The notes beneath the pieces were generated by a model. It was not told the DNA's origin. It searched no databases and saw nothing but the letters and a program-made list of their open reading frames with translations. Source: Bacteroidota bacterium (GTDB taxonomy: Bacteria; Bacteroidota; Ignavibacteria; UBA10030). Taken from it: a stretch of DNA of 64,000 nt. Location: positions 13,703-77,702 of the forward strand of contig JBEKEV010000011.1 in the NCBI GenBank assembly GCA_050013655.1, given 5' to 3'. This document shows, one piece after another, positions 50,616-64,000 of the stretch. Position numbers and translations under genes: made by a program. Each line of letters begins with the position of its first letter. Positions within the stretch are counted from its first letter, which is position 1.

Positions 50616-52091
50616 ATGACGACAATTCTCAACAGAGCGTGGAAAGGAGCCATTCTCCTTTTCACTATTTCACTCGAAGTAGCTTTCGCTCAGCACGACA
50701 CTTCACAACAACTACCGGCACGCATTGCGGGATCGATTCTTGTCAACGGGCATTCACTCGACTATCTGCAAGAGTTGACCGACGGATTTGGCGGACGTGT
50801 CTCCGGCTCAGCTGCTTATCAACGGGCATCGGAATGGGCTGCCGATCAGTTTCGCGCAGTCGGAGTGAAGGATGTAAAACTCGAGACCTTTACGCTGCCG
50901 AACGGCTGGGAGCGCATTTCTGCCCGCGCCCGTATGATCGCTCCGCTGGACCGTCCGCTTCAGGTGCATTCGTACGGTTGGGCTCCATCGACTTCTCTAG
51001 AAGGCATAAAAGCGGAGGTCGTCTATGTGCGCCACATCTTATCGCAGGACGAAATCAAGCTGCAGGCAAGCAAGATCAAAGGCCGCATTGCTCTTATCAA
51101 CGGCGAAAGTTTTTATCAGGATGAACAATTTCTGGACAGCAAGTATATCGCTTCAAAGCGTCTTCTCAAAGAACTGGGTGCGCTCGCGATGCTCGTGCGC
51201 GGCTCGGCGGATAATAATGTAACCTCAAGTTGGGACGATGTGTGGGGAGGCATGATCGAGCCGCTTCCAATACTGGAGATCGGGATGGAAGACGGAAAAC
51301 TCATCGAGCGTTCCTTAAGGAAAGGTCCCGTGACCATTGAGCTTCAATGTGCAAATAAAGTGACCGGACCCGTCAAGGTGAATAATGTCGTCGCCGAAAT
51401 CCGCGGGCGCGAAAAGCCGGACGAATGGATTCTCGTAAGTGCACATCTCGACTCCTGGGATCAAGGAACCGGGGCGCAGGATGACGGCAGCGGTTGCGCA
51501 ATGGTTCTGGATGCTGCCCGCGCCATCGCTCAGTTGAATACTGCTCCGCGCCGTTCCATCCGATTTGTGCTGTGGGGTGGAGAAGAACAGGGCTTGCTTG
51601 GATCGATGGACTATGTTCGTTTGCACGCTTCAGAAATGGGCAAGTGCATAGCGGCTATCGCTACAGGTCTGGGTGCCGGTTTTCCGCAAGGGTGGATCGT
51701 CAGAGGGAACGACGAACTGAGGAAAGCGGTGCGGCCTCTAGATCAGTCCCTGATCGGTCTGGGCGGTGATGGGTTAAAAACAGAAGTAAAATTCGAGGAA
51801 TTGTCAAGCTGGGAAACATTCTTTCTTTCAGGCATTCCAACCTTGGACCTCTGGACGAATGCGACGTATTACTGGGATATTCACAACAAACCAGGGGATA
51901 CGTTTGACAAAGTCGATTCTCATAATCTTGCCGCCGGAACAGCTATTGTAGCTATCACCGCCTACTGGATTGCCGAACAACCTTCAGTGATTGCATCGCA
52001 TCTTAATCAAGCGGCGGTGGAAAAGATTCTTAAGAGCGCGGGAGTCTACGACCGAATCAAGGATCTGCGGGAACTGGGGATTGTAAAATAG
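50616..52091 (+). CDS. M28-family zinc aminopeptidase with PA domain, secreted
   Basis: Signal peptide; M28 metal-ligand blocks (VSAHLDSWDQGTGAQDDGSGCA; the ..GGEEQGLLGS motif with the EE); GGAG Shine-Dalgarno. Confidence 0.85.
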   Translation: MTTILNRAWKGAILLFTISLEVAFAQHDTSQQLPARIAGSILVNGHSLDYLQELTDGFGGRVSGSAAYQRASEWAADQFRAVGVKDVKLETFTLPNGWERISARARMIAPLDRPLQVHSYGWAPSTSLEGIKAEVVYVRHILSQDEIKLQASKIKGRIALINGESFYQDEQFLDSKYIASKRLLKELGALAMLVRGSADNNVTSSWDDVWGGMIEPLPILEIGMEDGKLIERSLRKGPVTIELQCANKVTGPVKVNNVVAEIRGREKPDEWILVSAHLDSWDQGTGAQDDGSGCAMVLDAARAIAQLNTAPRRSIRFVLWGGEEQGLLGSMDYVRLHASEMGKCIAAIATGLGAGFPQGWIVRGNDELRKAVRPLDQSLIGLGGDGLKTEVKFEELSSWETFFLSGIPTLDLWTNATYYWDIHNKPGDTFDKVDSHNLAAGTAIVAITAYWIAEQPSVIASHLNQAAVEKILKSAGVYDRIKDLRELGIVK

Positions 52092-52891
52092 TGCCGACGA
52101 TCCTGACCGTTACAAACCTTACCAAACGATTCGACGACTTCACTGCCGTCGACGCCATCTCGTTCAGCGTCGAGCGTGGTGAAATCTTCGCGTTCCTCGG
52201 GCCAAACGGCGCCGGAAAGACAACAACCATCAGGATGCTGATCACTCTGCTTGCGCCGACGAGCGGAGAAGCAAGGATTGAAGGATACGATGTAGTGCGT
52301 CATCCCGCCGAAGTCCGGAGGCTTATCGGATACGTGCCGCAGATGATTTCCGTCGACGGAATGTTGACGGCATATGAAAACCTGATGCTCATGGCCCGGC
52401 TTTATGATATTCCTTTCCGCGAGCGCGAGGAGCGCATACAGGAAATTTTGAAATTCCTGGACTTGGAGAGCCATGCACATGCTCTGGTACGAACATATTC
52501 GGGAGGGATGATCAGGAAACTGGAGATCGGGCAAACGATGCTTCATCATCCTCGGATTTTATTTCTTGACGAACCCACCACCGGTCTTGACCCAGTCGCG
52601 AAACAAAATGTCTGGGATCACCTGCTGGAGCTTCACGATAAGTTCGGGACGACGATTTTTTTCTCGACGCACAACATGGACGAAGCGGAAGACGTCTGTA
52701 CCAGAGTCGCAATTATGAACACCGGCAAGATTGCAATTATCGGCACTACTTCCGAGCTAAAAGAAAAGACCGGCAACTCCGAAGCGACTCTTGAAGATTC
52801 TTTCGTTTTCTTCACGGGAAATTCTCTTCGCGAGACGACTAATTTCCGCGAAGTGCGAAGTGCAAGACGGGCAGAACGAAGACTAGGATGA
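52091..52891 (+). CDS. ABC transporter ATP-binding protein (ABC-2/DrrA-like exporter ATPase), GTG start overlapping the upstream stop
   Basis: Walker A GPNGAGKTT; signature YSGGMIRKL; Walker B ILFLDEPTTGLD; H-loop. Confidence 0.9.
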   Translation: MPTILTVTNLTKRFDDFTAVDAISFSVERGEIFAFLGPNGAGKTTTIRMLITLLAPTSGEARIEGYDVVRHPAEVRRLIGYVPQMISVDGMLTAYENLMLMARLYDIPFREREERIQEILKFLDLESHAHALVRTYSGGMIRKLEIGQTMLHHPRILFLDEPTTGLDPVAKQNVWDHLLELHDKFGTTIFFSTHNMDEAEDVCTRVAIMNTGKIAIIGTTSELKEKTGNSEATLEDSFVFFTGNSLRETTNFREVRSARRAERRLG

Positions 52892-53673
52892 ACCCCGTGC
52901 CAAAATATATTTCACAAGTTCTCACAAAGTCGTATGTGATGGCCGAAATGGAAGTGCGCAAACTTCTCCACGACCCCACGGAACTCGCGACGCGCGCGGT
53001 ACAACCGATTCTCTGGCTCGGTATCTTCGGAGAAGCAATGAGCAAGGCGCGGGCGATCCCCACGCAAGGATTCACGTACCTGCAGTTTATTACACCCGGC
53101 ATCCTGACTCAATCGGTAACGTTCGTTGCGATTTTTTACGGCATCTCGATCATCTGGGAAAGGGATATGGGGCTGCTTCAGAAAATCCTCGTAACACCGA
53201 CCCCTCGTCTTGCGCTGGTGTGGGGAAAAATGATCTCGGCAGGCGTGCGTGGGTTGAGCCAGGCGGTCATCGTCTTTCTCTTTGCCCTGATTCTGCAAAT
53301 CCACCTTCAGCTTACATTCTTCTCCATGACGGGTGTCATCATTATCACTATGCTTGGAGCAGGATTTTTCACCGGGCTGTCTATGATTATTGCGGCTCTC
53401 GTCAAAACGCGCGAACGGTTCATGGGCATAGGCCAGGTAATCACACTTCCTCTCTTTTTCGCTTCGAACGCGATCTACCCCATCAACATCATGCCGGAAT
53501 GGCTGCAAATAGTCGCAAACGTCAATCCACTCAGCTATATGGTGGATGGCCTGCGCGCGTTACTGGTGACTGGCGATTTCTCTCAACTTCCTCTAGACAT
53601 CGTCGTTCTCTTCACCGCCACTCTCGGCATATCATTCGCTAGTGCCTACTTGTATCCGAAAGTTATCGAATGA
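52888..53673 (+). CDS. ABC-2 type transporter permease
   Basis: 6 predicted TM helices; 4-nt overlap with the ATPase gene; typical ABC-2 membrane-domain size. Confidence 0.8.
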   Translation: MNPVPKYISQVLTKSYVMAEMEVRKLLHDPTELATRAVQPILWLGIFGEAMSKARAIPTQGFTYLQFITPGILTQSVTFVAIFYGISIIWERDMGLLQKILVTPTPRLALVWGKMISAGVRGLSQAVIVFLFALILQIHLQLTFFSMTGVIIITMLGAGFFTGLSMIIAALVKTRERFMGIGQVITLPLFFASNAIYPINIMPEWLQIVANVNPLSYMVDGLRALLVTGDFSQLPLDIVVLFTATLGISFASAYLYPKVIE

Positions 53674-54778: not shown

Positions 54779-57607
54779 ATGAAGAAGAGTGTTGCGATAT
54801 TTCTTTTCTTCCTTATTCCAGCAGCACAAGCACAAAACATCTTGGTGCATGGAATCATTCATGACTCAAAAAGGTCACCGCTCTTTGCCGTCGATATTCG
54901 CCTTATCAACCTTCAGGATACTACAAAAATCCTTTTTACTACAACCGACCAGAGGGGATATTTCCTTTTCACGCCGGCCGAATTACGTCAATATCGTCTG
55001 GAAGCAACATACATCGGCTACCAAAAAATCGTGAAAACAATTTCTGTTGATAAACACATTATGGACTTAGGTACGTTTACGATGACGGAAACTCCCATAT
55101 CAGAAAGAGAAGTCGTTATCGAAGGCAATATTCCGGCTGCCGTTCAGAACGGTGACACAACCGAATACATCGCACGTGCTTTCAAAACTAATCCTGATGC
55201 GGTTGTAGAAGACCTTGTAACTAAAATGCCGGGCATTACAGTGAGTAGTTCAGGTACCGTGAGTGTCGGAGGCGAGACGGTACAGCGTGTTCTCGTAGAC
55301 GGTAAACCTTTCTTTGGTGATGATCCCACACTGGCATTGCGCAATTTACCCGCTGAAGTAGTTGAGAAAATTCAGGTGTTCGATCAAATGAGTGATCAGG
55401 CACAGTTTACAGGATTCGATGATGGTCAATCCGTGAAAGCAATGAATGTTATTACCCGCTCTGCAAATGCACATTCAGAATTCGGAAGATTCTCCGCCGG
55501 ATACGGAGATGATGATGGCCGTTATATAGTCGGCGCGGCGCTCAATAAATTTGACGGTGATTCCAGGCTTTCTCTTGTTGGATTAACGAACAATGTGAAC
55601 CAACAAAACTTTACTGCGCAGGATGTTCTCGGCACCGGGCCAGGTTCGAATACATCGCAGAGGCTTCCTGGGGGACGGCGATCTTCATCGACGGGCGGCG
55701 GGGGACAGGGTGGACGTTCCCCGGGCAGTCAGTTCTCTTTCGGTGGAGGGGGCGGGAGCGCCAATAGCTTTTCCGCCGCACAAGCACAAGGAATCAATAC
55801 AACAAATATGATCGGCGGAAATTATATCGACAGTCTCTCTTCTCAAGTATTTGCGCAGGGGAGTTATTTCTTCAATCAGGTGAACAATGTGAATGATCAG
55901 ACAACGAACAGGCAATATTATAATGCGGGAAGTTCCGGTAGTCTTTATGATCAGCAGACAGATGCCGACAGCAAGAATTATAACCACCGGGCGAACGCAC
56001 GCATTGTATATACCATTGACTCTTCGAATTCCATCATTGTCACACCGCAGCTTCTTTTTCAACAAAATCAAATATCCAACGTCTTGGATGCGACAAGTTC
56101 TCTTGCAACGAACGTCCCTCTCAGCGAATCGCAAACCAATAATCAGACAGATGCGTCCGGACACAATCTTACGGGACATATTACTTTACGCCACAAATTT
56201 GAACTTCCCGGAAGAACACTGTCCCTAGATTTTTCTCTATCGCATAATCAAAAACTGACAACAACACATTTTGATGCCATGACGCAGCAAACGGGGGATT
56301 CAACTGCCGCCGATACTTCGAACGACCAAGCACATTCGATAACACTCGGTTACAGCATTTCTCCAACACTCACCTACACAGAGCCGGTAACTTTCAATAG
56401 TCAATTGCAACTGACATACAACGCCTCGTATTCAAGAAATACCGCAGATATAAGAACATATAATTTCAATGCACTGCGGCAACAATATTCGGATTTCGAT
56501 ACGCTGCTCTCCAATGTGTATGAAAATGAATATATCACGCAGAGTGCGGGCATGGGTTATCGAATTCGGGAAGATGGACTGAATGCGATGGCTGGATTCT
56601 CCGTCCAATCTGCAGAATTGAAAAACGATCAAACATTTCCATTTACAGGAAACATTTCAAAATCATTTATCGATTACCTTCCCAATGCACTCCTCAGCCT
56701 TGCGCTGGGTGCGCATGAAAATTTGCGTGTGATGTACCGCGCGTCCACACGGCCGCCGAACATTACACAATTACAAAATGTTATCAACAATTCAAATCCG
56801 TTGCTGCTTACATCCGGTAATCTTGATTTACAGGAATCGTATACTAATTCTCTTAATGTTCGGTATTCGATTACGACCCCCCAAAAAGCCAGAAGCATGT
56901 TCCTCCTGCTCTCTGCAACATTTACAAATGAGTACATCGGCAACGCGACAACTCTTGCGACGCGTGACACCGTGCTTTCTGATGGAACAAAATTAGCACA
57001 GGGCTCTCAGTTAACTATTCCCATCAATCTCAACGGATATGCAAACGTTCGTTCATTCTTTACCTACGGTTTTCCAGTAAATTTTCTCAGCAGTATGTTG
57101 AACTTGAGTACGGGTTTAACGTATACTCACACACCGGCTGAAATAAATTCTCTTTTAGATATGACAAACACATATGCCATCACTCAGGGATTCACGCTTG
57201 GAAGCAACGTTAGTCCTGAAGTCGATTTCACTCTTGCATACTCAGGCAGCTACAATATCAGCCGCACGAAGCTGCAGCCGGATCAAAACAGCAATTATTA
57301 TTCACATACGGCGAGCTTCAAGTTCAATTGGATTTTTTGGAATGGGATCGTGTTCAGAAACGAACTGAACAGCACGGTCACGAATGGTCTTTCCAACGGA
57401 TACGACCAGAATATTCTCTTGTGGAATATGAGTTTTGGAAAGAAATTCTTTTCGAACCAGCGCGGAGAATTGAAATTAGGCGTGTCCGATATGCTCGGTC
57501 AAAATAAAAGCATCACCCGCAACATTACCGATACCTATACAGAAGATGTAAGGAATACTGCTTTGACACGATATGTCATGCTTACATTTACATACACTTT
57601 AAGATAA
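54779..57607 (+). CDS. TonB-dependent outer-membrane receptor / beta-barrel protein with N-terminal CarboxypepD_reg domain
   Basis: Signal peptide; VHGIIHDSKRSPLFAVDIRLINLQDTTKILFTTTDQRGYFLF (CarbopepD_reg); a TonB-box-like EVVIEGN; plug and barrel; internal Gly-rich linker; ends LTFTYTLR. Confidence 0.7.
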   Translation: MKKSVAIFLFFLIPAAQAQNILVHGIIHDSKRSPLFAVDIRLINLQDTTKILFTTTDQRGYFLFTPAELRQYRLEATYIGYQKIVKTISVDKHIMDLGTFTMTETPISEREVVIEGNIPAAVQNGDTTEYIARAFKTNPDAVVEDLVTKMPGITVSSSGTVSVGGETVQRVLVDGKPFFGDDPTLALRNLPAEVVEKIQVFDQMSDQAQFTGFDDGQSVKAMNVITRSANAHSEFGRFSAGYGDDDGRYIVGAALNKFDGDSRLSLVGLTNNVNQQNFTAQDVLGTGPGSNTSQRLPGGRRSSSTGGGGQGGRSPGSQFSFGGGGGSANSFSAAQAQGINTTNMIGGNYIDSLSSQVFAQGSYFFNQVNNVNDQTTNRQYYNAGSSGSLYDQQTDADSKNYNHRANARIVYTIDSSNSIIVTPQLLFQQNQISNVLDATSSLATNVPLSESQTNNQTDASGHNLTGHITLRHKFELPGRTLSLDFSLSHNQKLTTTHFDAMTQQTGDSTAADTSNDQAHSITLGYSISPTLTYTEPVTFNSQLQLTYNASYSRNTADIRTYNFNALRQQYSDFDTLLSNVYENEYITQSAGMGYRIREDGLNAMAGFSVQSAELKNDQTFPFTGNISKSFIDYLPNALLSLALGAHENLRVMYRASTRPPNITQLQNVINNSNPLLLTSGNLDLQESYTNSLNVRYSITTPQKARSMFLLLSATFTNEYIGNATTLATRDTVLSDGTKLAQGSQLTIPINLNGYANVRSFFTYGFPVNFLSSMLNLSTGLTYTHTPAEINSLLDMTNTYAITQGFTLGSNVSPEVDFTLAYSGSYNISRTKLQPDQNSNYYSHTASFKFNWIFWNGIVFRNELNSTVTNGLSNGYDQNILLWNMSFGKKFFSNQRGELKLGVSDMLGQNKSITRNITDTYTEDVRNTALTRYVMLTFTYTLR

Positions 57608-57901
57608 TCCCTCCAACAAAGAGACAGGCACAACGAATTAATTCCTGAAGATTTGAACAAAATGTATAATTACGGCGGACAAGGTCTTCGCCTGCCTCGA
57701 TATCAACACCAGAGTTTTTGCATGTAGCCATGTGAGTTTTATCATCTGAGATTAAGATTGGGATAGGACAGCTGATTTTTTAACGTTGAACAAGGAAAGA
57801 ACGATTCTTCAGTACGAAAAAAGCGCATAGATTTACTTGTTCTTTTTTTACAGCTTCCCTATATTGTAGAAAGACTATTATGATACTCATAGAGAGGGGC
57901 A

Positions 57902-58276
57902 ATGATCATAAATCGATTTCCTGTGGCGATAATATTGTCCTCAGTTCTCACTCTACACTGTTCATCAACAAAACCTCTTTCAGAAGCAGAAAAAGCCAAA
58001 TTGGACCAACCGTTGCTGCATTTGCTCACCGGTAAACCTATACAAGAAAACCGACTTGATATTTTAACACGGTCGGATGGAACAAAAGAGTATGCAGTCA
58101 TTGTTCAATCAGAACACCCAGAAGCTATTCGCGCACTAGGGATCACCGTAAGCAGTGTTTTTGGAGATGTCATTGTGGTTCACGTCACTCTTGAAGAGTT
58201 AAAAAATATCGTATCATTACCTACAGTTCGGGCTGTACGAACCGGATCAAGAAGAACTATCCAGCAACATCATTAA
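57902..58276 (+). CDS. Small secreted protein paralogous to the N-terminal propeptide region of the adjacent S8 protease; a candidate trans-acting propeptide, inhibitor or chaperone
   Basis: Signal peptide; ...EKAKLDQPLLHLLTGKP...DGTKEYAVIVQSEHPEAIRALGITVSSVFGDVIVVHVTLEELKNIVSLPTVRAVRTG aligns with S8 residues about 25-125 (...EKQRSKLHPLFRSLITKSSQP...DGTVRYGAIVYTRNVEEIRSMGIHVNSVLPEFVTAQLTPSDMVRLADLESVKFLDPG). AGAGGGG Shine-Dalgarno. Confidence 0.55.
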   Translation: MIINRFPVAIILSSVLTLHCSSTKPLSEAEKAKLDQPLLHLLTGKPIQENRLDILTRSDGTKEYAVIVQSEHPEAIRALGITVSSVFGDVIVVHVTLEELKNIVSLPTVRAVRTGSRRTIQQHH

Positions 58277-58286
58277 AAAGGCTCTT

Positions 58287-61067
58287 ATGACAACTTTAAC
58301 ACGACATACCAGAACATTCATCCTCCTGTTGATTGTTGTTTATGCAGCATTCGGTGCAGATCTCACGGAAAAGCAAAGGTCAAAACTGCATCCATTGTTT
58401 CGATCTTTGATAACAAAATCGTCGCAGCCATTGTTAAAGACGTCAAGCAGGTCACATCGCATCGCATCAACAGTTTCCAGCGATGGCACTGTTCGTTATG
58501 GTGCCATTGTGTACACTCGCAATGTTGAAGAGATTCGCTCAATGGGAATACATGTCAATTCTGTTCTTCCGGAATTTGTCACGGCACAGCTCACTCCATC
58601 GGATATGGTAAGGCTCGCCGATCTTGAAAGCGTGAAGTTCCTTGATCCCGGCAAAGTGCATCATCCACTTCTTGATGTCAGTGTTCCCGAAACCGGCGCA
58701 GCACTGGTACATTCAGGATTCATCAACAATACACCGTATAAAGGAAAAGGTGCTATTGTTCTTATTTTTGATACGGGAATCGATTGGAAGCATTTTGATT
58801 TTCGCAATCCAACAGATACAACCAAGTCGCGCATACTTTTTATTTGGGATCAAACTCTCACTGCGGGTGTTGACGGATCCGCACCTTCTGGTTTCTCCTA
58901 CGGTGTTGAGTACACACAAGCTCAAATCGAAAACGAACTCAAGGGCAATCCGCCAGGTGTTGTGCATGAAAAAGATATTATTGGGCACGGAACGCATGTG
59001 GCAAGCACCGCCGCTGGAAATGGTCAAGCGTTTAATAATAAATATGTCGGAATGGCACCAGAAGCAGATATCATCATCGTGAAAGGCGGAGATGGTACTT
59101 TCTCATCAGCCGGAGAGATGGATGGCTTGACATATGCACAAAATAAAGCAACAGCGCTCGGTGAACCGATCGTTGTCAATATGAGTCTCGGAGGACAAGA
59201 AGGCTCGCACGATGGAACAGATCCTGATGAAGTTGCAGTGGACAATTTTGTTAAGAAAGCCGGACGTGTGGTGTGTATTGCAGCAGGTAACGACGGATCG
59301 GACATGATACATGCCAATGGAACTGTCAGCAATGGATCATCAAGTGTAATCACAGTAAATGTGCCACAGGGGTATACACCAAATACTGGAACAGATAATG
59401 CTTTTTTCATTCTCGATATTTGGCTGCCCAACTCAAATGCAGTAAACATGACTCTTACATCACCAACGGGCGGCAATCCATACTCTACTCCTGCAAATTC
59501 GGAGTTAGATAGTGTGAACCGTCCAGAAGGCACAATAGACACATGGAACTATATTGAAGCTCAAAACAATCATCGTCACATACAGGTATGGATCCACGAT
59601 GCAGCTTCCCCAGTGCCTCAATCTGGACCATGGATCATTACACTGAGCACAACAGGCGCATTGACTACATACGACGCCTGGCTCGATAGCGAGCTGGGCG
59701 ATTTATCTGCAACCATCAATGGCGGCAATAACAATAAAACTGTTGCGATGCCTGGCACAGCAGATGGTGCAATTACAGTTGGTTCATATGTCACCAAATG
59801 GAATTGGACTGATTACACTGGAGGGAGTTGGTACTATGGCGATCCTGATAGAACAGGAAATATTTCGACATTCAGCAGTATCGGACCGACAGCGGATGGG
59901 AGGAATAAACCGGATATTGCAGCACCCGGCCAGGGAATTGTTGCTGCATTCTCCAGCACTGATATTGATGAATCGACATCAGACATTATTGTTAGCAATA
60001 AATATCTTCTTATGCAGGGTACCAGCATGGCAACTCCCCATGTGACGGGAGGTGTAGCATTGCTGCTCAGTGCAAAACCATCATTGACTATTGCGCAAAC
60101 AAAAAATTACTTGCTCTCGACAGCTCGAACTGATAATTTTACTACTTCTTCCGTCTGGAATGCAACATGGGGTAATGGAAAGATGGATATCTATAAAGCT
60201 ATGGCGGGTGCAGTCGGTGCATCGGGAGCAAACCGTGTAACACTTTCTTATAATAGTGACACAACAATTGGCTACACTCCGTTAACAAGCAGTGGCAACC
60301 AGAAACTTGCTATGCGTTTTACACCTACGATTAGCGGAAATCTTTCCAGCGTCGCAATAACGTTAAGCAGCGGAGCAACTGGAATCAAAGGAACTGGAAA
60401 TCTGAAAGTTACCGCAACCCAGAGTATTGCAGGAAGTGTCGCTGGCATCCCCGGCACACAGATTGGTAACAGCGTTCTCGTTCCATTCAGTTCATTGAGC
60501 CCCGGAGTGATCAATGTGATTGATCTTTCATCTGCTGGAGTTTTTGTAACTTCGGGAACAGATTTTCAGATTGTCTTGGAAACAACAACTAGTGGCGATA
60601 CTCTCCAACCTCTTCTGGATAATGGATCATTGAAAATTGTTCGTACTTCGTCGTACCGTAATGGTAACAATGGACTTGGCTGGTACAACAGGGCCGATCC
60701 TAATTATGGATCTGGTAAACAGCCGGACGACTTAAATCTTCTTATCGCAGCAGATATTGCAGTGCCAGTAACAGAAGTCGAACATATTACTACTGAATTG
60801 CCGACATCGTTTATGCTTAGGCAGAACTATCCCAATCCATTTAATCCGACAACAAAGATCGCATATACAATTCCCATCGCGAGCAAAGTTACGTTGAAGA
60901 TATTTAACCTGCTCGGACAACTCGTTGCGACATTGGTTGATGAACAACAGGAAGCAAATACCTACGTAAAGGAATTTGATGCTTCCCGCTTGGCTTCCGG
61001 AACCTATTTCTATCAAATCAATGCCGGGAACTTTAACTCCACAAAGAAAATGACTCTGATGAAATAA
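58287..61067 (+). CDS. Subtilisin-like serine protease (peptidase S8) with N-terminal propeptide and T9SS C-terminal sorting domain
   Basis: Catalytic triad blocks (IFDTGID, HGTHVASTAAGNG, GTSMATPHVTGG); C-terminus FMLRQNYPNPFNPTTKIAYTI...YFYQINAGNF is a Por tail. Confidence 0.9.
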   Translation: MTTLTRHTRTFILLLIVVYAAFGADLTEKQRSKLHPLFRSLITKSSQPLLKTSSRSHRIASTVSSDGTVRYGAIVYTRNVEEIRSMGIHVNSVLPEFVTAQLTPSDMVRLADLESVKFLDPGKVHHPLLDVSVPETGAALVHSGFINNTPYKGKGAIVLIFDTGIDWKHFDFRNPTDTTKSRILFIWDQTLTAGVDGSAPSGFSYGVEYTQAQIENELKGNPPGVVHEKDIIGHGTHVASTAAGNGQAFNNKYVGMAPEADIIIVKGGDGTFSSAGEMDGLTYAQNKATALGEPIVVNMSLGGQEGSHDGTDPDEVAVDNFVKKAGRVVCIAAGNDGSDMIHANGTVSNGSSSVITVNVPQGYTPNTGTDNAFFILDIWLPNSNAVNMTLTSPTGGNPYSTPANSELDSVNRPEGTIDTWNYIEAQNNHRHIQVWIHDAASPVPQSGPWIITLSTTGALTTYDAWLDSELGDLSATINGGNNNKTVAMPGTADGAITVGSYVTKWNWTDYTGGSWYYGDPDRTGNISTFSSIGPTADGRNKPDIAAPGQGIVAAFSSTDIDESTSDIIVSNKYLLMQGTSMATPHVTGGVALLLSAKPSLTIAQTKNYLLSTARTDNFTTSSVWNATWGNGKMDIYKAMAGAVGASGANRVTLSYNSDTTIGYTPLTSSGNQKLAMRFTPTISGNLSSVAITLSSGATGIKGTGNLKVTATQSIAGSVAGIPGTQIGNSVLVPFSSLSPGVINVIDLSSAGVFVTSGTDFQIVLETTTSGDTLQPLLDNGSLKIVRTSSYRNGNNGLGWYNRADPNYGSGKQPDDLNLLIAADIAVPVTEVEHITTELPTSFMLRQNYPNPFNPTTKIAYTIPIASKVTLKIFNLLGQLVATLVDEQQEANTYVKEFDASRLASGTYFYQINAGNFNSTKKMTLMK

Positions 61068-61089
61068 CAGGCGGTGTTGTTCATTCAAA

Positions 61090-61125
61090 CGAAAGCCCTC
61101 TCACAGAAATGCGTTAGGGCTTTCG
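61090..61125 (+). terminator. Rho-independent terminator after the S8 protease gene
   Basis: Perfect 10-bp stem CGAAAGCCCT/AGGGCTTTCG with a 16-nt loop, followed by a T-rich run (tgtttcat), 23 nt past the stop. Confidence 0.55.
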
Positions 61126-61403
61126 TGTTTCATCATGCATCAACATGCGCACATCTATTAAGAATGATGGAGACAGGAACCACTATACTAGAGTCTTCGT
61201 TCATAGAAAGAGCGAAGATATCGACAATCATCGGCTTATACGGAACAATTTATTCGAATGACGGAAATTTGAGTGTTATGGTAACTCACAGAAGTAATAA
61301 TTTAGTATATTTTCATGAAGCATCATGTGATGCTTATTGTATGAGAACATAACTCCAAACAAAGGAACGCTGTTTCGACAGAGAAATCACAACAGGCTGA
61401 AAA

Positions 61404-61874
61404 ATGCTCATATTGAAATTTTGGCGGGATACCTGTTCTCTGAAAATATTTTGTGTTTTCTTCATAATGGCGTTTTTTTGTATTCTCAATATTTCTTGTT
61501 CTTCAAGCAAGAAAGAAACCCGCAGCGAACAAAACAATACTGCGAGCGCGCCATTATCGCCAACGACACAAGAGAAAACGGCGATCAAAGACACCGTACC
61601 TTCAGTGGCATCTCTGGACTTTGCCTCGACCGTGAATGATACTGTAACCGGTGTACTGTACGTTACGGGCAACGAGCCGTTCACAAAACTTGGATTGCAG
61701 ACTCCGAACGGGACAATGTATATTTTAAAATGCACAAAAGAGATCGAATCAGATTTACGTACCATGCAAGGAAAGATTGTAAACGTTCACTATGATAGCA
61801 TGGAACAAATTCCAGAGGGACAAGCTCTGAAGGTTGTAAAGATTGAATATCTGCACCAACGTACAGTCAAATAA
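61404..61874 (+). CDS. Hypothetical small lipoprotein (the likely start is the internal Met before ...FFCILNISCSS)
   Basis: Lipobox-like NISCSS after a hydrophobic stretch; about 130-aa mature domain; no family recognised. Confidence 0.4.
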   Translation: MLILKFWRDTCSLKIFCVFFIMAFFCILNISCSSSKKETRSEQNNTASAPLSPTTQEKTAIKDTVPSVASLDFASTVNDTVTGVLYVTGNEPFTKLGLQTPNGTMYILKCTKEIESDLRTMQGKIVNVHYDSMEQIPEGQALKVVKIEYLHQRTVK

Positions 61875-61905
61875 TGATTATCTCACACAGAGTGGAAGAT
61901 ATCGT

Positions 61906-64000
61906 ATGCAGCATTATTTCGTTCGGCAATTCATAGTTTTTATTTTGGGTTTTCTAGTTTGCACAACGCTTCATGCACAGCCCTTGGAACAGATAGCGAT
62001 AGAGAAGAGCATGCCTCCTAAGAGCTATCCGATTCATGGATCAGATCTGCTCTGGAAACAGGAGCTTGAAGTACGAAAATTTGTGGCAGAACATCCAGAA
62101 GCTCTCAAATCGAACACATTACGCAAAACCGCATGGACATTCACAGTGGGCTCTACAAAATCATGGTACGCAGATAACTTGATTACCCATAACAACAGCG
62201 ACAGGTACCAAGTACCTTCGACATGCCGTGCTGTAGGCATCAACTGCTATATTTTTGTGGAAGATTCAAGCTGGAACACTCATGTAAATCAAGCAGCCGT
62301 TGATTCCATACGTATATATTTTGATTCCAAAACACCCGCGAATCCTTCCAAGGGTATTTTTGCTACCGATACTTCTGCCTTCGGTAATCCACCCGATGTC
62401 GATCACGATCCGAAGATCATAATTCTGCTCCTCAATATTAAAGACGGCTACAGCGGCAGCGGCGGTTTTGTCGAAGGGTACTTCTATTCATTCAATGAAG
62501 TTAATCCCTCGCAACCGGGATATAGCACAAGTAATTTTGCAGAAATGTTTTATATTGATACGAATCCGCTTAACCTTGCGACACCGGGAGGATTAGCATC
62601 CGGAATTTCGACACTCGCACATGAATTCCAACATATGATCCATTTTAACTATGCGTCACTCATCAACGGAAAATCTGGCGGAGATTTGACATTCATCGAT
62701 GAAGGTTGTTCGGTGCTCGCTGAAGTGAACTGCGGTTTCCCTATCTATAATCCAGTACTCTATGCAAACGAACCCAACCATTATCTCCTTGACTGGCGGC
62801 CTGATGATATGACCGCCGTCCTTAATGACTATTCCCGTGCTGCAAGGTTCTTTGTGTATATGCGGGATCAAGTTGGTATGAGTCTCTTTAAGAATATCGT
62901 CGCAAGTCCACTCTATGGCGTACCACAAATCGATGCAGGTTTCCAGGCAATCGCATCTAGTTTTCGGTTTGCTGACATCTTAAAGAATTGGTTTGTCGCC
63001 AACATCTTAGATGATAGATCGATCAATCCATTATATGGTTATATTTATCCAGGCCTTCCAAAATCGCATGGACGTTTATATTTCAATCCTACTGTTACAC
63101 TCACAACCGATACTGTACAGAATTATGCAGTTCAGTATCTTGACTTCAAGAGTGGTTCTCAACTGAGGACAACTATCACATGCAGCAATTCTGCTTTACT
63201 GGTGAAGGCAGTTGAGATCGGTCCTTCATCTAAAAGAGTTTTAGATGTAACCAATGGAGTAGAATTTTACGAACCTGAATTTGGAACTACCTATAGCGAA
63301 GTTCATTTTGTCATAATGAACACAAGTCCTAATACACAATACACCTATACATATGCAGCATCTGGAATTAGTAGTGGTGTTGTAGAATTAAAATACGACT
63401 TAACTGAACCAACCGGTTATCTGTCTGGTGCGATAGGCGATACGGTATGTGTATGGTTCAATGGTGTTACCGGTGGAAAACTTGATTCGGTACGAGTGGC
63501 ACTTCGAAGGGCTGGAATGATGACTGGCGGCGTTTGGACTTACACTGGAGTAGTACAGCCCTCACCGTTAGGCGCACCGCTTGCTGTACCGGTAACCGCA
63601 ACAGTTACTCAAACTCCAAGTTATCCATATCCCGTACCGTGGCCAAACTGGGGCACAATCGATTTACGAACAAAGAATATCGATGCGAGTAAAGCGTTTG
63701 CCGTTGCTTTTATTGATCAAGGCGATTATACCACACAACCACGTGTTATGATTACGGAATCCTCATTGCCAAGTGAGATTACCAGTCTTACATACTCTAA
63801 TGCTTCATCTTCACCAAACTGGTATTACCCCACTTCGAATGACGCTGGAGACTCTGTCTTTACTTATCTTATCCGGGCATATGTAAGTATTGATACATCG
63901 GGAGAAAAACAAAACATCGAATTGACTCCAGCCTCTTTCATATTAGCGCAAAACTATCCTAATCCGTTCAATCCTTCTACCACCATCAAGTTCCAAATAC
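61906..64000 (+). CDS. Secreted zinc metallopeptidase (HExxH; possibly M30/hyicolysin-like) with a T9SS C-terminal domain; the 3' end is truncated by the window edge
   Basis: Signal peptide MQHYFVRQFIVFILGFLVCTTLHAQ; zinc motif ISTLAHEFQHMIHFN plus a downstream DEGCS; the last residues ILAQNYPNPFNPSTTIKFQI begin a Por tail. The ATG at 61906 is in-frame with GGAAG upstream. Confidence 0.6.
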   Translation, partial: MQHYFVRQFIVFILGFLVCTTLHAQPLEQIAIEKSMPPKSYPIHGSDLLWKQELEVRKFVAEHPEALKSNTLRKTAWTFTVGSTKSWYADNLITHNNSDRYQVPSTCRAVGINCYIFVEDSSWNTHVNQAAVDSIRIYFDSKTPANPSKGIFATDTSAFGNPPDVDHDPKIIILLLNIKDGYSGSGGFVEGYFYSFNEVNPSQPGYSTSNFAEMFYIDTNPLNLATPGGLASGISTLAHEFQHMIHFNYASLINGKSGGDLTFIDEGCSVLAEVNCGFPIYNPVLYANEPNHYLLDWRPDDMTAVLNDYSRAARFFVYMRDQVGMSLFKNIVASPLYGVPQIDAGFQAIASSFRFADILKNWFVANILDDRSINPLYGYIYPGLPKSHGRLYFNPTVTLTTDTVQNYAVQYLDFKSGSQLRTTITCSNSALLVKAVEIGPSSKRVLDVTNGVEFYEPEFGTTYSEVHFVIMNTSPNTQYTYTYAASGISSGVVELKYDLTEPTGYLSGAIGDTVCVWFNGVTGGKLDSVRVALRRAGMMTGGVWTYTGVVQPSPLGAPLAVPVTATVTQTPSYPYPVPWPNWGTIDLRTKNIDASKAFAVAFIDQGDYTTQPRVMITESSLPSEITSLTYSNASSSPNWYYPTSNDAGDSVFTYLIRAYVSIDTSGEKQNIELTPASFILAQNYPNPFNPSTTIKFQI

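What the first reader, a model, noticed from the sequence alone, without database searches (positions are those of the whole stretch)
57902..61067. Stand-alone paralog of the subtilase propeptide encoded immediately upstream of the T9SS-sorted S8 protease
The 124-aa secreted protein aligns along its length with residues about 25-125 of the protease N-terminal region (…DGTxxYxxIV…EIRxxGIxVxSV…V…T…). It is therefore a duplicated, detached prodomain. Free prodomain paralogs can act as dedicated inhibitors or folding chaperones in trans, or as an immunity/regulatory partner for the secreted protease. I am not aware of this being a standard feature of T9SS subtilase loci.
Basis: seen in the sequence. 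Interest (0 to 1): 0.6.

Follow-up and report, generated by a model that had tools for sequence, protein, structure and literature searches.

The report
Lipoprotein copy of a protease prodomain
A small, probably membrane-anchored lipoprotein that is an ancient detached copy of the neighbouring secreted protease's own prodomain sits just upstream of that protease in 18 of 19 related loci checked, and most likely acts as its dedicated tethered inhibitor; this has not been tested by experiment.

Summary
The 124-aa ORF (57902-58276) aligns with residues 23-129 of the adjacent 926-aa T9SS-sorted S8 protease (58287-61067). BLASTP gives E = 2e-10, shuffle controls give z = 14, and the family profile-profile comparison gives E = 5e-33.

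The "detached prodomain paralogue" reading is supported. [quoted passage not shown] Some members give weak, sub-threshold hits to Pfam CspB_prodomain. The protease itself is a Csp-like subtilase.

- The small protein is a probable lipoprotein. The Cys is present in about 90% of the family, and distant members have canonical lipoboxes.
- It belongs to an unannotated family of at least 205 clusters at 50% identity, found in Ignavibacteriota, Calditrichota and "Bacteroidota" MAGs.
- In 18 of 19 informative loci the gene sits directly upstream of an orthologous protease.
- It ends where the prodomain is inferred to be cleaved.

The gene is under purifying selection (dN/dS 0.2-0.4).

The best explanation is a membrane-tethered, product-like cognate inhibitor. 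This would work like the potempins of Tannerella and like eukaryotic stand-alone I9 inhibitors, but with an independent origin by prodomain duplication. Inhibition itself is inferred and not shown. I rate it a new variant of a known kind, of moderate interest.

The parts
57701..57901 (+). Conserved 5' region of the two-gene module (putative promoter and leader), with a purine-rich Shine-Dalgarno-like stretch AGAGAGGGG at 57891-57899
   Evidence: Nucleotide identity to L007 and L008 begins at about 57701, while the flank further upstream is not homologous. Sequence read. Sigma-70-like matches are no more frequent than in shuffles, so the promoter is not identified.
57902..57961 (+). Signal peptide (residues 1-19) ending in the lipobox-like L-T-L-H-C, with Cys20 at 57959-57961
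   Evidence: Cys20 is invariant in A1 and at least 90% conserved in A2. 160 of 178 N-complete members have a Cys within 14 residues upstream of the conserved motif, and distant members show canonical L-x-[GAS]-C. The His at -1 in the window's clade is non-canonical.
57977..58030 (+). N-terminal helical motif L-S-E-A-E-K-A-K-L-D-Q-P-L-L-H-L-L-T (residues 26-43), shared with the start of the mature protease prodomain (D-L-T-E-K-Q-R-S-K-L-H-P-L-F)
   Evidence: K31, A32, K33, L34 and D35 are invariant in A1. This stretch aligns to protease residues 25-42 in hhalign. Helices 28-31 and 36-43 appear in both models.
58085..58243 (+). [quoted passage not shown]
   Evidence: AF2 block pLDDT is 84-94. 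Foldseek against PDB returns subtilase prodomains with probability 0.82-1.00; core-only matches have rmsd 1.4-2.6 A over about 60 residues.
58244..58276 (+). C-terminal tail G-S-R-R-T-I-Q-Q-H-H (residues 115-124) plus stop codon; homologous to the protease's pro-catalytic junction
   Evidence: hhalign aligns the family tail consensus G-S-x-N-Y-P-Q to the protease's P-G-S-x-N-Y-P-x-L. The tails partly co-vary with the cognate junction. About 80% of members end within 0-4 residues of the profile end.
58287..58355 (+). Protease signal peptide (residues 1-23, signal peptidase I type, ...A-F-G|A-D-L)
   Evidence: Read from the sequence. Helix 2-21 in the model. [quoted passage not shown]
58356..58673 (+). 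Cis prodomain of the protease (residues 24-129), paralogous to the small protein
   Evidence: The small-family HMM scores it at 73 bits. Same order of secondary-structure elements. PF18425 gives E = 0.037.
58650..58697 (+). Pro-catalytic junction G-K-V-H-H-P-L-L|D-V-S-V-P-E-T-G; autoprocessing site inferred between L129 and V133
   Evidence: Lowest pLDDT in the model at residues 125-128. The mature CspB and Csp chains begin opposite residues 131-133. P-G-S-x-N-Y-P-x-L-D-V-S-V-P-E-T-G is the family consensus. The cleavage itself is not shown.
58674..60251 (+). Csp-like subtilase domain with catalytic D162 (58770-58772), H234 (58986-58988), oxyanion N335 (59289-59291) and S580 (60024-60026), plus a beta-rich insertion at about residues 340-480 (59304-59726)
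   Evidence: Pfam S8. The triad and Asn are invariant in 54 homologues. The best PDB matches by sequence and by fold are CspA, CspB and CspC (4i0w_D TM 0.82, rmsd 3.9 A) and Tk-SP.
60252..60827 (+). C-terminal beta-rich middle region (residues 656-847); most of it (from about residue 605 to 855) is hypervariable between close relatives
   Evidence: Nucleotide identity to L007 is 0.37-0.57 at 60101-60850, compared with 0.85-0.99 in the flanking parts.
60828..61067 (+). T9SS type A C-terminal sorting domain (residues 848-926) plus stop codon
   Evidence: PF18962 at 47.6 bits and TIGR04183 at 47.5 bits, both above their cut-offs.

Best explanation
The 124-aa gene encodes a probable lipoprotein that is an ancient, free-standing paralogue of the Csp-type prodomain of the T9SS-secreted subtilase encoded 10 nt downstream. 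The two genes form a conserved module.

Proposed mechanism (inferred, not shown):
1. The protease folds in the periplasm with the help of its own cis prodomain.
2. It cuts itself at the conserved ...N-Y-P-x-L|D-V-S-V-P-E-T-G junction (H-H-P-L-L|D-V-S in this window).
3. It is exported by the T9SS.
4. Once the cis prodomain has been lost, the membrane-tethered paralogue can occupy the same docking surface. Its homologous C-terminal tail, which ends at about the position of the cleaved prodomain's new C-terminus, would lie in the non-primed substrate subsites like a bound product.

The result would be a 1:1, non-cleavable, membrane-confined inhibitor. It would protect the producer's own envelope, or hold a latent pool of enzyme at the cell, while enzyme that has diffused away stays active.

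What is shown: the homology, the predicted fold, the lipoprotein signal, the conserved gene pairing, purifying selection, and the position of the C-terminus. What is inferred: lipidation, cellular location, binding and inhibition.
For: - Homology of the small protein to the cis prodomain over its whole length.
- Propeptide fold, with the CspB prodomain as top structural hit. Recurrent sub-threshold PF18425 hits.
- The protease is structurally Csp-like. In CspB the cleaved prodomain stays bound, works in trans with high specificity, and its C-terminal P3-P1 residues occlude the active site (PMC3567191).
- The small proteins end within about -1 to +2 residues of the conserved hydrophobic residue before the invariant D-V-S-V-P-E-T-G, and their tails resemble the cognate junction. 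Examples: L005 T-I-N-L-P-Q-L against S-T-N-Y-P-Q-L; L014 S-K-N-Y-P-H against S-I-N-Y-P-Q-I. The position of the C-terminus is constrained across the family.
- Lipoprotein signal in about 90% of members.
- Pairing with an orthologous S8 protease in 18 of 19 informative loci, including three sampled from the protease side and members only 25% identical.
- dN/dS of 0.21-0.41, and co-divergence with the catalytic domain (Spearman rho 0.87).
- The catalytic triad is intact and invariant, so there is an activity to control.
- Precedents: potempins are 98-132-aa outer-membrane lipoproteins encoded 5 bp or less upstream of T9SS peptidases and inhibit them 1:1, including the S8 enzyme mirolase (PMC9890683). 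Stand-alone propeptide-like proteins POIA1, PBI2, SPI-1, TgMIC5 and SUB1-ProM are potent subtilase inhibitors (PMC6993865).
Against: - No binding, inhibition, lipidation or expression data exist.
- No complex could be modelled. In the single-chain protease model, the placement of the cis prodomain against the catalytic domain could not be verified: PDB chains that include a prodomain superpose with rmsd of about 24 A.
- The window clade's lipobox has His, Gln or Tyr at position -1, which is unusual for signal peptidase II.
- In the window clade the tail (R-R-T-I-Q-Q-H-H) resembles the cognate junction (K-V-H-H-P-L-L) much less than in other clades.
- Pfam Inhibitor_I9 does not match, and PF18425 stays below its gathering score.
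- The protease keeps its own prodomain, so the need for a second inhibitor is argued only by analogy.
- One locus (L018) shows a convergent unrelated gene instead of a protease.
Confidence: 0.55

Rival explanations
1. Trans-acting folding chaperone or maturation factor. The lipoprotein assists folding or re-folding of the subtilase domain at the membrane, as prodomains supplied in trans do. It would be needed for production of active enzyme, not for inhibition.
For: Subtilase prodomains are intramolecular chaperones, and the CspB prodomain restores folding when co-expressed in trans, in a highly cognate-specific way (PMC3567191). The small protein shares the complete prodomain layout, including the N-terminal helices. 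Tight operon linkage and co-divergence fit any obligate partner.
Against: Every protease in the family retains its own full-length, well-conserved cis prodomain, so a second foldase looks redundant. All characterised stand-alone propeptide-like proteins act as inhibitors independent of any chaperone role (PMC6993865). The conserved, positionally constrained C-terminal tail is the inhibitory element of prodomains and not the one needed for folding.
Confidence: 0.15
2. Non-inhibitory surface tether or receptor. The lipoprotein uses the prodomain-binding surface only to hold the released protease, or its prodomain-bound complex, at the cell envelope. This would control localisation without blocking catalysis.
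For: Probable membrane anchor. Some orthologous proteases lack a recognisable T9SS tail and so lack the usual surface-attachment route: L001/L013 at 801 aa, and P0279 and P0292. A partner could supply retention in those cases.
Against: Prodomain-type docking places the C-terminal tail in or next to the active-site cleft in all solved complexes (PMC6993865, PMC3567191). The tail is conserved and homologous to the cleavage junction, so binding without inhibition is unlikely.
Confidence: 0.1
3. Non-functional remnant or mis-called ORF. The small ORF would be a decaying leftover of a tandem protease duplication, with no function of its own.
For: It is derived by duplication of the 5' part of the protease gene. 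One relative (L021) carries a frameshift.
Against: There are at least 205 clusters at 50% identity with near-constant length. The gene has its own distinct signal peptide with a conserved Cys. dN/dS is 0.21-0.41. The pairing is kept between members only 25% identical. The L021 frameshift lies at a homopolymer run and may be an assembly error.
Confidence: 0.02

Closest known systems
Potempins (PotA-E) of Tannerella forsythia, especially PotC, the inhibitor of the S8 subtilase mirolase (PMC9890683)
   Same: Small size (98-132 aa against 124 aa). Lipoprotein signal. Encoded immediately upstream of, and on the same strand as, a T9SS-sorted peptidase that has its own prodomain. One partner per peptidase. 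A self-protection logic that has been demonstrated for potempins.
   Different: No sequence or fold relationship. The profile search of PDB does not find PotC (8ehe), and no potempin appears in the 50 Foldseek matches listed. PotC inhibits through a reactive-centre loop by the standard mechanism. Here the protein is a paralogue of the enzyme's own prodomain and would bind like a product. Potempins were described as unrelated to any known protein and confined to T. forsythia; this family spans Ignavibacteriota, Calditrichota and related MAGs.
Stand-alone subtilisin propeptide-like inhibitors (MEROPS I9 type): Pleurotus POIA1, yeast PBI2, Arabidopsis SPI-1, Toxoplasma MIC5, Plasmodium SUB1-ProM (PMC6993865)
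   Same: [quoted passage not shown] SUB1-ProM is also encoded next to subtilase genes and is selective for its cognate enzyme.
   Different: All characterised examples are eukaryotic and soluble. None is a lipoprotein or part of a bacterial operon with a T9SS enzyme. Pfam Inhibitor_I9 does not match here. Here the paralogy to the cognate prodomain is directly detectable by sequence (E = 5e-33), whereas the cited paper suggests that such stand-alone proteins may reflect convergent evolution.
CspB/CspBA/CspC germination subtilases of clostridia and their retained prodomain (PMC3567191; Pfam PF18425)
   Same: Closest solved relatives of both the catalytic domain (TM 0.82) and the small protein's fold (4i0w_A is the top hit). 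A beta-rich insertion lies inside the subtilase domain. In CspB the prodomain acts as a tightly bound inhibitor whose C-terminal residues gate the active site, and it can function in trans.
   Different: Csp proteases are intracellular spore proteins of Firmicutes with no separate prodomain gene, no lipoprotein partner and no T9SS tail. NCBIfam CspBA and CspC scores are far below their cut-offs (146 against 1250; 93 against 675). PF18425 hits are below the gathering score.
SpeB-Spi of Streptococcus pyogenes (recalled from memory: Kagawa et al. 2005, Mol Microbiol; only cited indirectly, as reference 34 of PMC9890683)
   Same: A bacterial protease gene with an adjacent small gene whose product resembles the protease's own propeptide and inhibits it. 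It is the nearest bacterial precedent for the idea of a prodomain paralogue acting as cognate inhibitor.
   Different: It involves a cysteine protease (family C10), an unrelated fold, a cytoplasmic inhibitor that is not a lipoprotein, and no T9SS. I could not read this paper here, so the comparison rests on memory.

Membership tests
Subtilase propeptide / MEROPS I9 (Pfam PF05922 Inhibitor_I9) | Match to the Inhibitor_I9 profile | tested here: not met
   No PF05922 hit at E <= 1 for the small protein, for 59 family members, or for the protease. None at E <= 10 for 9 isolated cis prodomains.
Subtilase propeptide / MEROPS I9 (Pfam PF05922 Inhibitor_I9) | [quoted passage not shown] | tested here: met
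   AF2 model with core pLDDT above 90: E62-70, H73-77, E83-87, E90-95, H97-104, E109-114. Foldseek matches to the prosegments of subtilisin E, BPN', Tk-subtilisin, cucumisin and PCSK9 have probability 0.82-1.00, although E-values are only 0.01-0.4. This is a predicted structure, not a solved one.
Subtilase propeptide / MEROPS I9 (Pfam PF05922 Inhibitor_I9) | C-terminal tail binds the S4-S1 subsites and the protein inhibits a subtilase | not testable with these tools
   Only indirect evidence: the tail is homologous to the cognate pro-catalytic junction and ends at about the inferred cleavage position.
Csp protease B prodomain (Pfam PF18425) | Profile match above the gathering score (25 bits) | tested here: not met
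   8 of 59 small-family members match (best E = 8.3e-4), but the window protein itself does not match at E <= 1. 4 of 9 cis prodomains match at 11.6-17.2 bits. The hits are recurrent and it is the only family matched by more than two members, but all are sub-threshold.
Csp protease B prodomain (Pfam PF18425) | Structural similarity to the CspB prodomain and attachment to a Csp-like subtilase domain with an internal beta-rich insertion | tested here: met
   4i0w_A is the top Foldseek hit for the small protein (probability 1.00). The protease model's best matches are CspA, CspB and CspC (4i0w_D TMt 0.82, rmsd 3.9 A). The sequence aligns across the insertion.
Potempins (T. forsythia) | Small lipoprotein encoded immediately upstream of a T9SS peptidase gene | tested here: met
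   124 aa, conserved Cys20, a 10-nt gap to a gene with Por_Secre_tail. Co-transcription was not tested.
Potempins (T. forsythia) | Sequence or structural homology to PotA-E | tested here: not met
   The profile of A1 against all PDB chains, which include PotC (8ehe), finds no potempin at E <= 10. No potempin is among the 50 Foldseek matches listed.
Potempins (T. forsythia) | Specific 1:1 inhibition of the co-transcribed peptidase; outer-membrane location | not testable with these tools
   Needs biochemistry and cell fractionation.
Bacterial lipoproteins (signal peptidase II substrates) | Signal peptide ending in a lipobox with an invariant Cys at +1 | tested here: inconclusive
   The Cys is invariant in A1 and at least 90% conserved in A2; 160 of 178 N-complete members have it; distant clades show canonical L-x-[GAS]-C. 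The window clade has L-[ST]-[LF]-[HQ]-C, with a non-canonical residue at -1. No dedicated predictor was available and lipidation was not shown.
T9SS type A cargo | C-terminal sorting domain above the curated thresholds | tested here: met
   PF18962 at 47.6 bits (cut-off 27) and TIGR04183 at 47.5 bits (cut-off 23), at residues 848-922.
Active S8 subtilase | Asp-His-Ser triad and oxyanion Asn present | tested here: met
   D162, H234, N335 and S580 sit in the canonical motifs and are invariant in 54 homologues.

The most novel reading that the evidence does not exclude
A whole, previously unannotated family of bacterial lipoproteins arose by duplication of a subtilase prodomain and serves as membrane-tethered 'second prodomains'. 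These would recapture the mature T9SS-secreted protease at the producer's own envelope. If so, potempin-type self-protection is not a peculiarity of Tannerella forsythia but a recurrent solution across the FCB superphylum, and this would be a clear case in which the evolutionary origin of a cognate protease inhibitor (the enzyme's own prodomain) can be read directly from sequence. The adjacent small lipoprotein plus M30 peptidase pair (61404-63999) would be a second, independently derived example in the same locus.
Probability: 0.4. Interest if true: 0.65.

Novelty: new variant of a known kind. Interest (0 to 1): 0.5.

Why it matters
Secreted proteases are dangerous to the cell that makes them. 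How bacteria that use the type IX secretion system protect their own envelope has been worked out for a single organism, through the potempins of Tannerella forsythia.

This locus suggests an independent and much more widespread solution in environmental Ignavibacteriota and their relatives: copy the enzyme's own prodomain, give it a lipid anchor, and encode it in front of the protease gene.

If confirmed, three things follow:
- It would be the first bacterial lipoprotein member of the class of propeptide-like subtilase inhibitors. In the literature I could search, the characterised members are eukaryotic and soluble.
- It would give a sequence-traceable origin for a cognate inhibitor.
- It would provide ready-made, highly specific inhibitor and protease pairs for a family of Csp-like subtilases. 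That could be useful for enzyme control in biotechnology, and as a comparison for how the retained prodomain regulates clostridial Csp germination proteases.

It would also justify a new family model, since every member is currently annotated as 'hypothetical protein'.

Tried and rejected
- Pfam and NCBIfam scans of the small protein gave no hit, and Inhibitor_I9 did not match either protein.
- A profile search of PDB sequences with the small family gave only chance-level hits (E >= 0.4) and no potempin.
- The search for related loci with the broad alignment A2 failed because no stretch was conserved enough. With A1 it reached only close relatives (10 Ignavibacteriota or 'Bacteroidota' MAG loci).
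- I tried to confirm docking of the cis prodomain from the single-chain protease model. 
- Promoter and terminator scans of 57400-61500 gave no more matches than shuffled sequence.
- I tested whether the downstream 156-aa lipoprotein is a paralogue of its M30 peptidase neighbour. It is not (BLASTP E > 1).
- I searched the window for further copies of the domain and found only these two.
- Literature searches for SpeB-Spi and for a bacterial propeptide-like lipoprotein found nothing in the held library. SpeB-Spi is therefore cited from memory only.
- The pseudogene or remnant reading was considered and rejected on conservation and dN/dS.


Full report
**1. The observation**

The window carries two + strand ORFs 10 nt apart: 57902-58276 (124 aa) and 58287-61067 (926 aa). 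The large protein has Pfam Peptidase_S8 (161 bits) and a T9SS type A sorting domain. The sorting domain scores 47.6 bits on PF18962 and 47.5 bits on TIGR04183, both above their cut-offs.

BLASTP aligns small-protein residues 21-115 with protease residues 32-122, at 29% identity and E = 2e-10. In Smith-Waterman shuffle controls the observed score is 106, against a mean of about 30 with sd about 5. That is z = 14, and none of 2000 shuffles reach the observed score. Removing both signal peptides does not change this.

**2. The small ORF is a real, conserved gene and a member of a sizeable family**

A word-indexed search found 61 cluster representatives. All are stand-alone proteins of about 80-155 aa, down to 51% identity. 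An exhaustive profile search of 1.84 billion representatives found 205 clusters at 50% identity with E <= 1e-3. Of the 150 listed, almost all are 65-266 aa.

All members that carry a name are called "hypothetical protein", apart from one evident mis-annotation. None has a precomputed Pfam domain. Named sources are MAGs of Ignavibacteriota or Ignavibacteriae, "Bacteroidota bacterium" from fen and peat, and one Calditrichaeota MAG.

dN/dS of the small gene against three close relatives is 0.21-0.41. That is purifying selection, so the remnant or mis-call reading is rejected.

**3.

Cys20 ends the hydrophobic signal segment. It is invariant in the close family (A1) and at least 90% conserved in the broad alignment (A2). 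Of 178 N-terminally complete members, 160 have a Cys within 14 residues upstream of the conserved motif L-[TS]-x-x-E-x-x-K-L-D-P-x-L. Distant members show textbook lipoboxes such as LAAC, LSGC and MAGC.

In the window's clade the box is L-[ST]-[LF]-[HQ]-C. The residue at -1 is non-canonical, so I call lipidation probable and not shown. Cys20 is the only Cys in the mature protein. The protease, by contrast, has an ordinary signal-peptidase-I type signal (A-F-G|A-D-L).

**4. It is a paralogue of the protease's prodomain**

*(a) Sequence.* Profile-profile comparison of the small family against the N-terminal 150 residues of 54 protease homologues gives probability 99.9% and E = 5e-33. The alignment runs from just after the signal peptides to the last residues of the small protein (small 23-122 against protease 23-129). 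A small-family HMM scores the N-termini of all full-length neighbouring proteases at 41-81 bits; the truncated L017 fragment scores 22 bits. The window contains only these two copies of the domain.

*(b) Fold.* The AlphaFold2 model of the small protein has mean pLDDT 79, with the core above 90. [quoted passage not shown] This is the topology described for subtilase propeptides (PMC6993865).

*(c) Pfam.* Inhibitor_I9 matches neither protein. PF18425 "CspB_prodomain" is hit by 8 of 59 small-family members (best E = 8e-4), though not by the window protein itself, and by 4 of 9 isolated cis prodomains. All hits are below the gathering score, but no other family is matched by more than two members.

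*(d) The protease's own N-terminal domain.* The model of protease residues 1-660 (pLDDT 83.5) shows the same order of elements in its N-terminal domain. It has a low-confidence linker at residues 125-128.

*(e) Age of the duplication.* Similarity between a small protein and its own protease is no higher than between loci. The two families also separate cleanly by HMM score. The duplication therefore happened once, before these lineages diverged.

**5. The protease is a Csp-like subtilase**

By sequence and by fold, its closest solved relatives are the clostridial germination proteases CspA, CspB and CspC (4i0w_D: TM 0.82, rmsd 3.9 A) and the archaeal Tk-SP. The match includes a beta-rich insertion inside the subtilase domain.

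NCBIfam Csp scores are far below their cut-offs, so this is a structural relative and not an orthologue. D162, H234, N335 and S580 are invariant in 54 homologues, so the enzyme should be active.

For CspB it has been shown that:
- the cleaved prodomain stays bound;
- it can act in trans with high cognate specificity;
- its C-terminal P3-P1 residues occlude the active site (PMC3567191).

**6. The C-terminus**

The small family's C-terminal consensus G-S-x-N-Y-P-Q-stop aligns onto the proteases' conserved P-G-S-x-N-Y-P-x-L followed by the invariant D-V-S-V-P-E-T-G. Mature Csp chains begin opposite protease residues 131-133. The autoprocessing site is therefore inferred to lie between L129 and V133. 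Cleavage itself is not shown.

The small proteins end within about -1 to +2 residues of the conserved hydrophobic residue before D-V-S. About 80% of family members end within 0-4 residues of the last profile position.

The tails partly track the cognate junction:
- L005: T-I-N-L-P-Q-L-HH against S-T-N-Y-P-Q-L|DV
- L014: S-K-N-Y-P-H against S-I-N-Y-P-Q-I|DL
- L020: L-N-Y-E-Q-S against Q-N-Y-L-Y-T

In the window's clade the resemblance is weak: R-R-T-I-Q-Q-H-H against K-V-H-H-P-L-L. This evidence is suggestive but anecdotal.

**7. The pairing is a conserved module**

Of 19 loci in which the neighbourhood could be read, 18 have an orthologous S8 protease downstream on the same strand. In 17 of them the protease gene is intact and starts between an overlap of 17 nt and a gap of 86 nt.

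| Loci | How sampled |
|---|---|
| L001, L003, L005 | from close small-protein homologues |
| L006-L015 | genome scan (three of these come from the same contigs as other listed loci: L008 with L003, L013 with L001, and L007 carries the protease P0219) |
| L016, L017, L019, L020, L024 | distant members, down to 25% identity |
| L021-L023 | from the protease side, chosen without regard to the small gene |

In L021 the small gene is split by one frameshift at a homopolymer run. The exception is L018, a 954-nt contig with a convergent unrelated gene.

Upstream neighbours differ between genomes. They are an outer-membrane beta-barrel protein here and AIRS/DUF2721 genes elsewhere. Homology to L007 and L008 begins only at about 57701, so the pair moves as a unit. 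Pairwise identities of the small proteins and of the catalytic domains are correlated (Spearman rho 0.87 over 55 non-independent pairs).

**8. Mechanism**

The best-supported reading (confidence 0.55) is a membrane-tethered cognate inhibitor that binds as the cleaved prodomain does, with its tail in the non-primed subsites like a bound product. This rests on the shown features above plus two sets of precedents.

- Potempins are 98-132-aa outer-membrane lipoproteins encoded 5 bp or less upstream of T9SS peptidases that carry their own prodomains. They inhibit the downstream peptidase 1:1 and protect the outer membrane. PotC inhibits the S8 enzyme mirolase (PMC9890683).
- Stand-alone propeptide-like proteins (POIA1, PBI2, SPI-1, TgMIC5, SUB1-ProM) are potent subtilase inhibitors. 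[quoted passage not shown]

Binding, inhibition, lipidation and cellular location are all inferred. The rivals are a trans-acting chaperone (0.15), a non-inhibitory tether (0.10) and a remnant ORF (0.02). The remainder is left for functions I have not thought of.

**9. Comparison and novelty**

The thing works like a potempin and like an I9-type stand-alone inhibitor, but it is a formal member of neither. It has no homology to potempins, no Inhibitor_I9 profile match, and only sub-threshold matches to PF18425.

Four things appear to be new:
- a bacterial, lipid-anchored, stand-alone prodomain homologue;
- direct, sequence-detectable paralogy to the cognate enzyme's prodomain;
- a family of at least 205 clusters tightly linked to Csp-like T9SS subtilases in Ignavibacteriota and their relatives;
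- the family is unannotated, and in the searchable library I found no paper describing it.

That library omits most subscription journals. The SpeB-Spi pair, which I recall as a bacterial propeptide-like cognate inhibitor of a cysteine protease, could not be read here.

I rate this a new variant of a known kind, with interest 0.5. It is a clean, testable hypothesis that would generalise a mechanism so far thought to be unique to one organism. The concept itself is not new, and no functional evidence exists.

**10. Side observations**

See the list of things noticed in passing. The most notable is a second small lipoprotein plus T9SS peptidase pair (family M30) immediately downstream. The other is the mosaic divergence of the protease gene.

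Noticed in passing
window 61404-61874 (+) and 61907-63999 (+, runs off the window end): A second 'small lipoprotein followed by a T9SS peptidase' pair lies directly downstream. The first gene encodes a 156-aa protein with a lipobox-like ...F-C-I-L-N-I-S-C|S-S-S-K-K-E and no Pfam hit. After 32 nt comes a Peptidase_M30 gene (PF10460, E = 3.5e-7) whose end runs into a T9SS tail motif (N-Y-P-N-P-F-N-P-S-T-T-I). The two proteins share no sequence similarity (BLASTP E > 1), so this is not a prodomain paralogue. The pair is conserved in L003/L008 and L007. L020 has a 107-aa ORF in front of its M30 gene that shares the motifs GNEPFT and LQG+xVxV by eye. It may be a second, independently derived cognate partner.
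   Followed up: partly
window 57701-61450 compared with L007, L008, L006 and L010: The protease locus diverges in a mosaic pattern. Against L007, the small gene, prodomain and T9SS tail are mostly 0.86-0.99 identical at nucleotide level, with a dip to 0.73 at 58001-58150. The catalytic domain is 0.75-0.86 identical. The segment 60101-60850 (residues about 605-855) is only 0.37-0.57 identical. Synonymous divergence is 0.17-0.41 in the small gene and prodomain but about 1.0 in the catalytic domain. This suggests recombinational replacement of the middle and C-terminal part, while both ends and the partner gene are kept.
   Followed up: partly
L021 2560-2965: In one complete Ignavibacteriota-type chromosome the small gene is split by a single frameshift at a homopolymer run (…GAGAAAGGCAAAAC…), directly upstream of an intact protease. 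This is either an assembly error or a recent pseudogene.
   Followed up: partly
L001/L013 (protease 801 aa); P0279, P0292, P0328: Some orthologous proteases have no recognisable Por_Secre_tail although L001/L013 keeps the small partner gene. The pairing therefore does not strictly depend on T9SS sorting.
   Followed up: no
P0195 (611 aa): One profile hit is a 611-aa protein with 10 matched stretches and an internally repeated sequence (…MKHLINISSLNSPKKYLND… recurs). It is probably a low-complexity or repeat artefact and not a true relative.
   Followed up: no
window 54779-57607 (+) and 50616-53673 (+): Upstream of the pair lie a 942-aa CarboxypepD_reg plus OMP_b-brl_3 outer-membrane protein with a Gly/Ser-rich low-complexity stretch, a 281-aa protein with no Pfam hit, an ABC-2 transporter pair and an M28 peptidase. 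Together with the S8 and M30 enzymes, this end of the window is rich in secreted and envelope peptidases.
   Followed up: no
window 57902-58276 family, distant members (P0125, P0140-P0142, P0157): A distant subclade of the small-protein family carries two extra conserved Cys residues (…D-G/R-C… in the variable loop and …I-E/R-C-G-S… just before the tail). These could form a disulfide that fixes the tail. The window protein lacks them.
   Followed up: no
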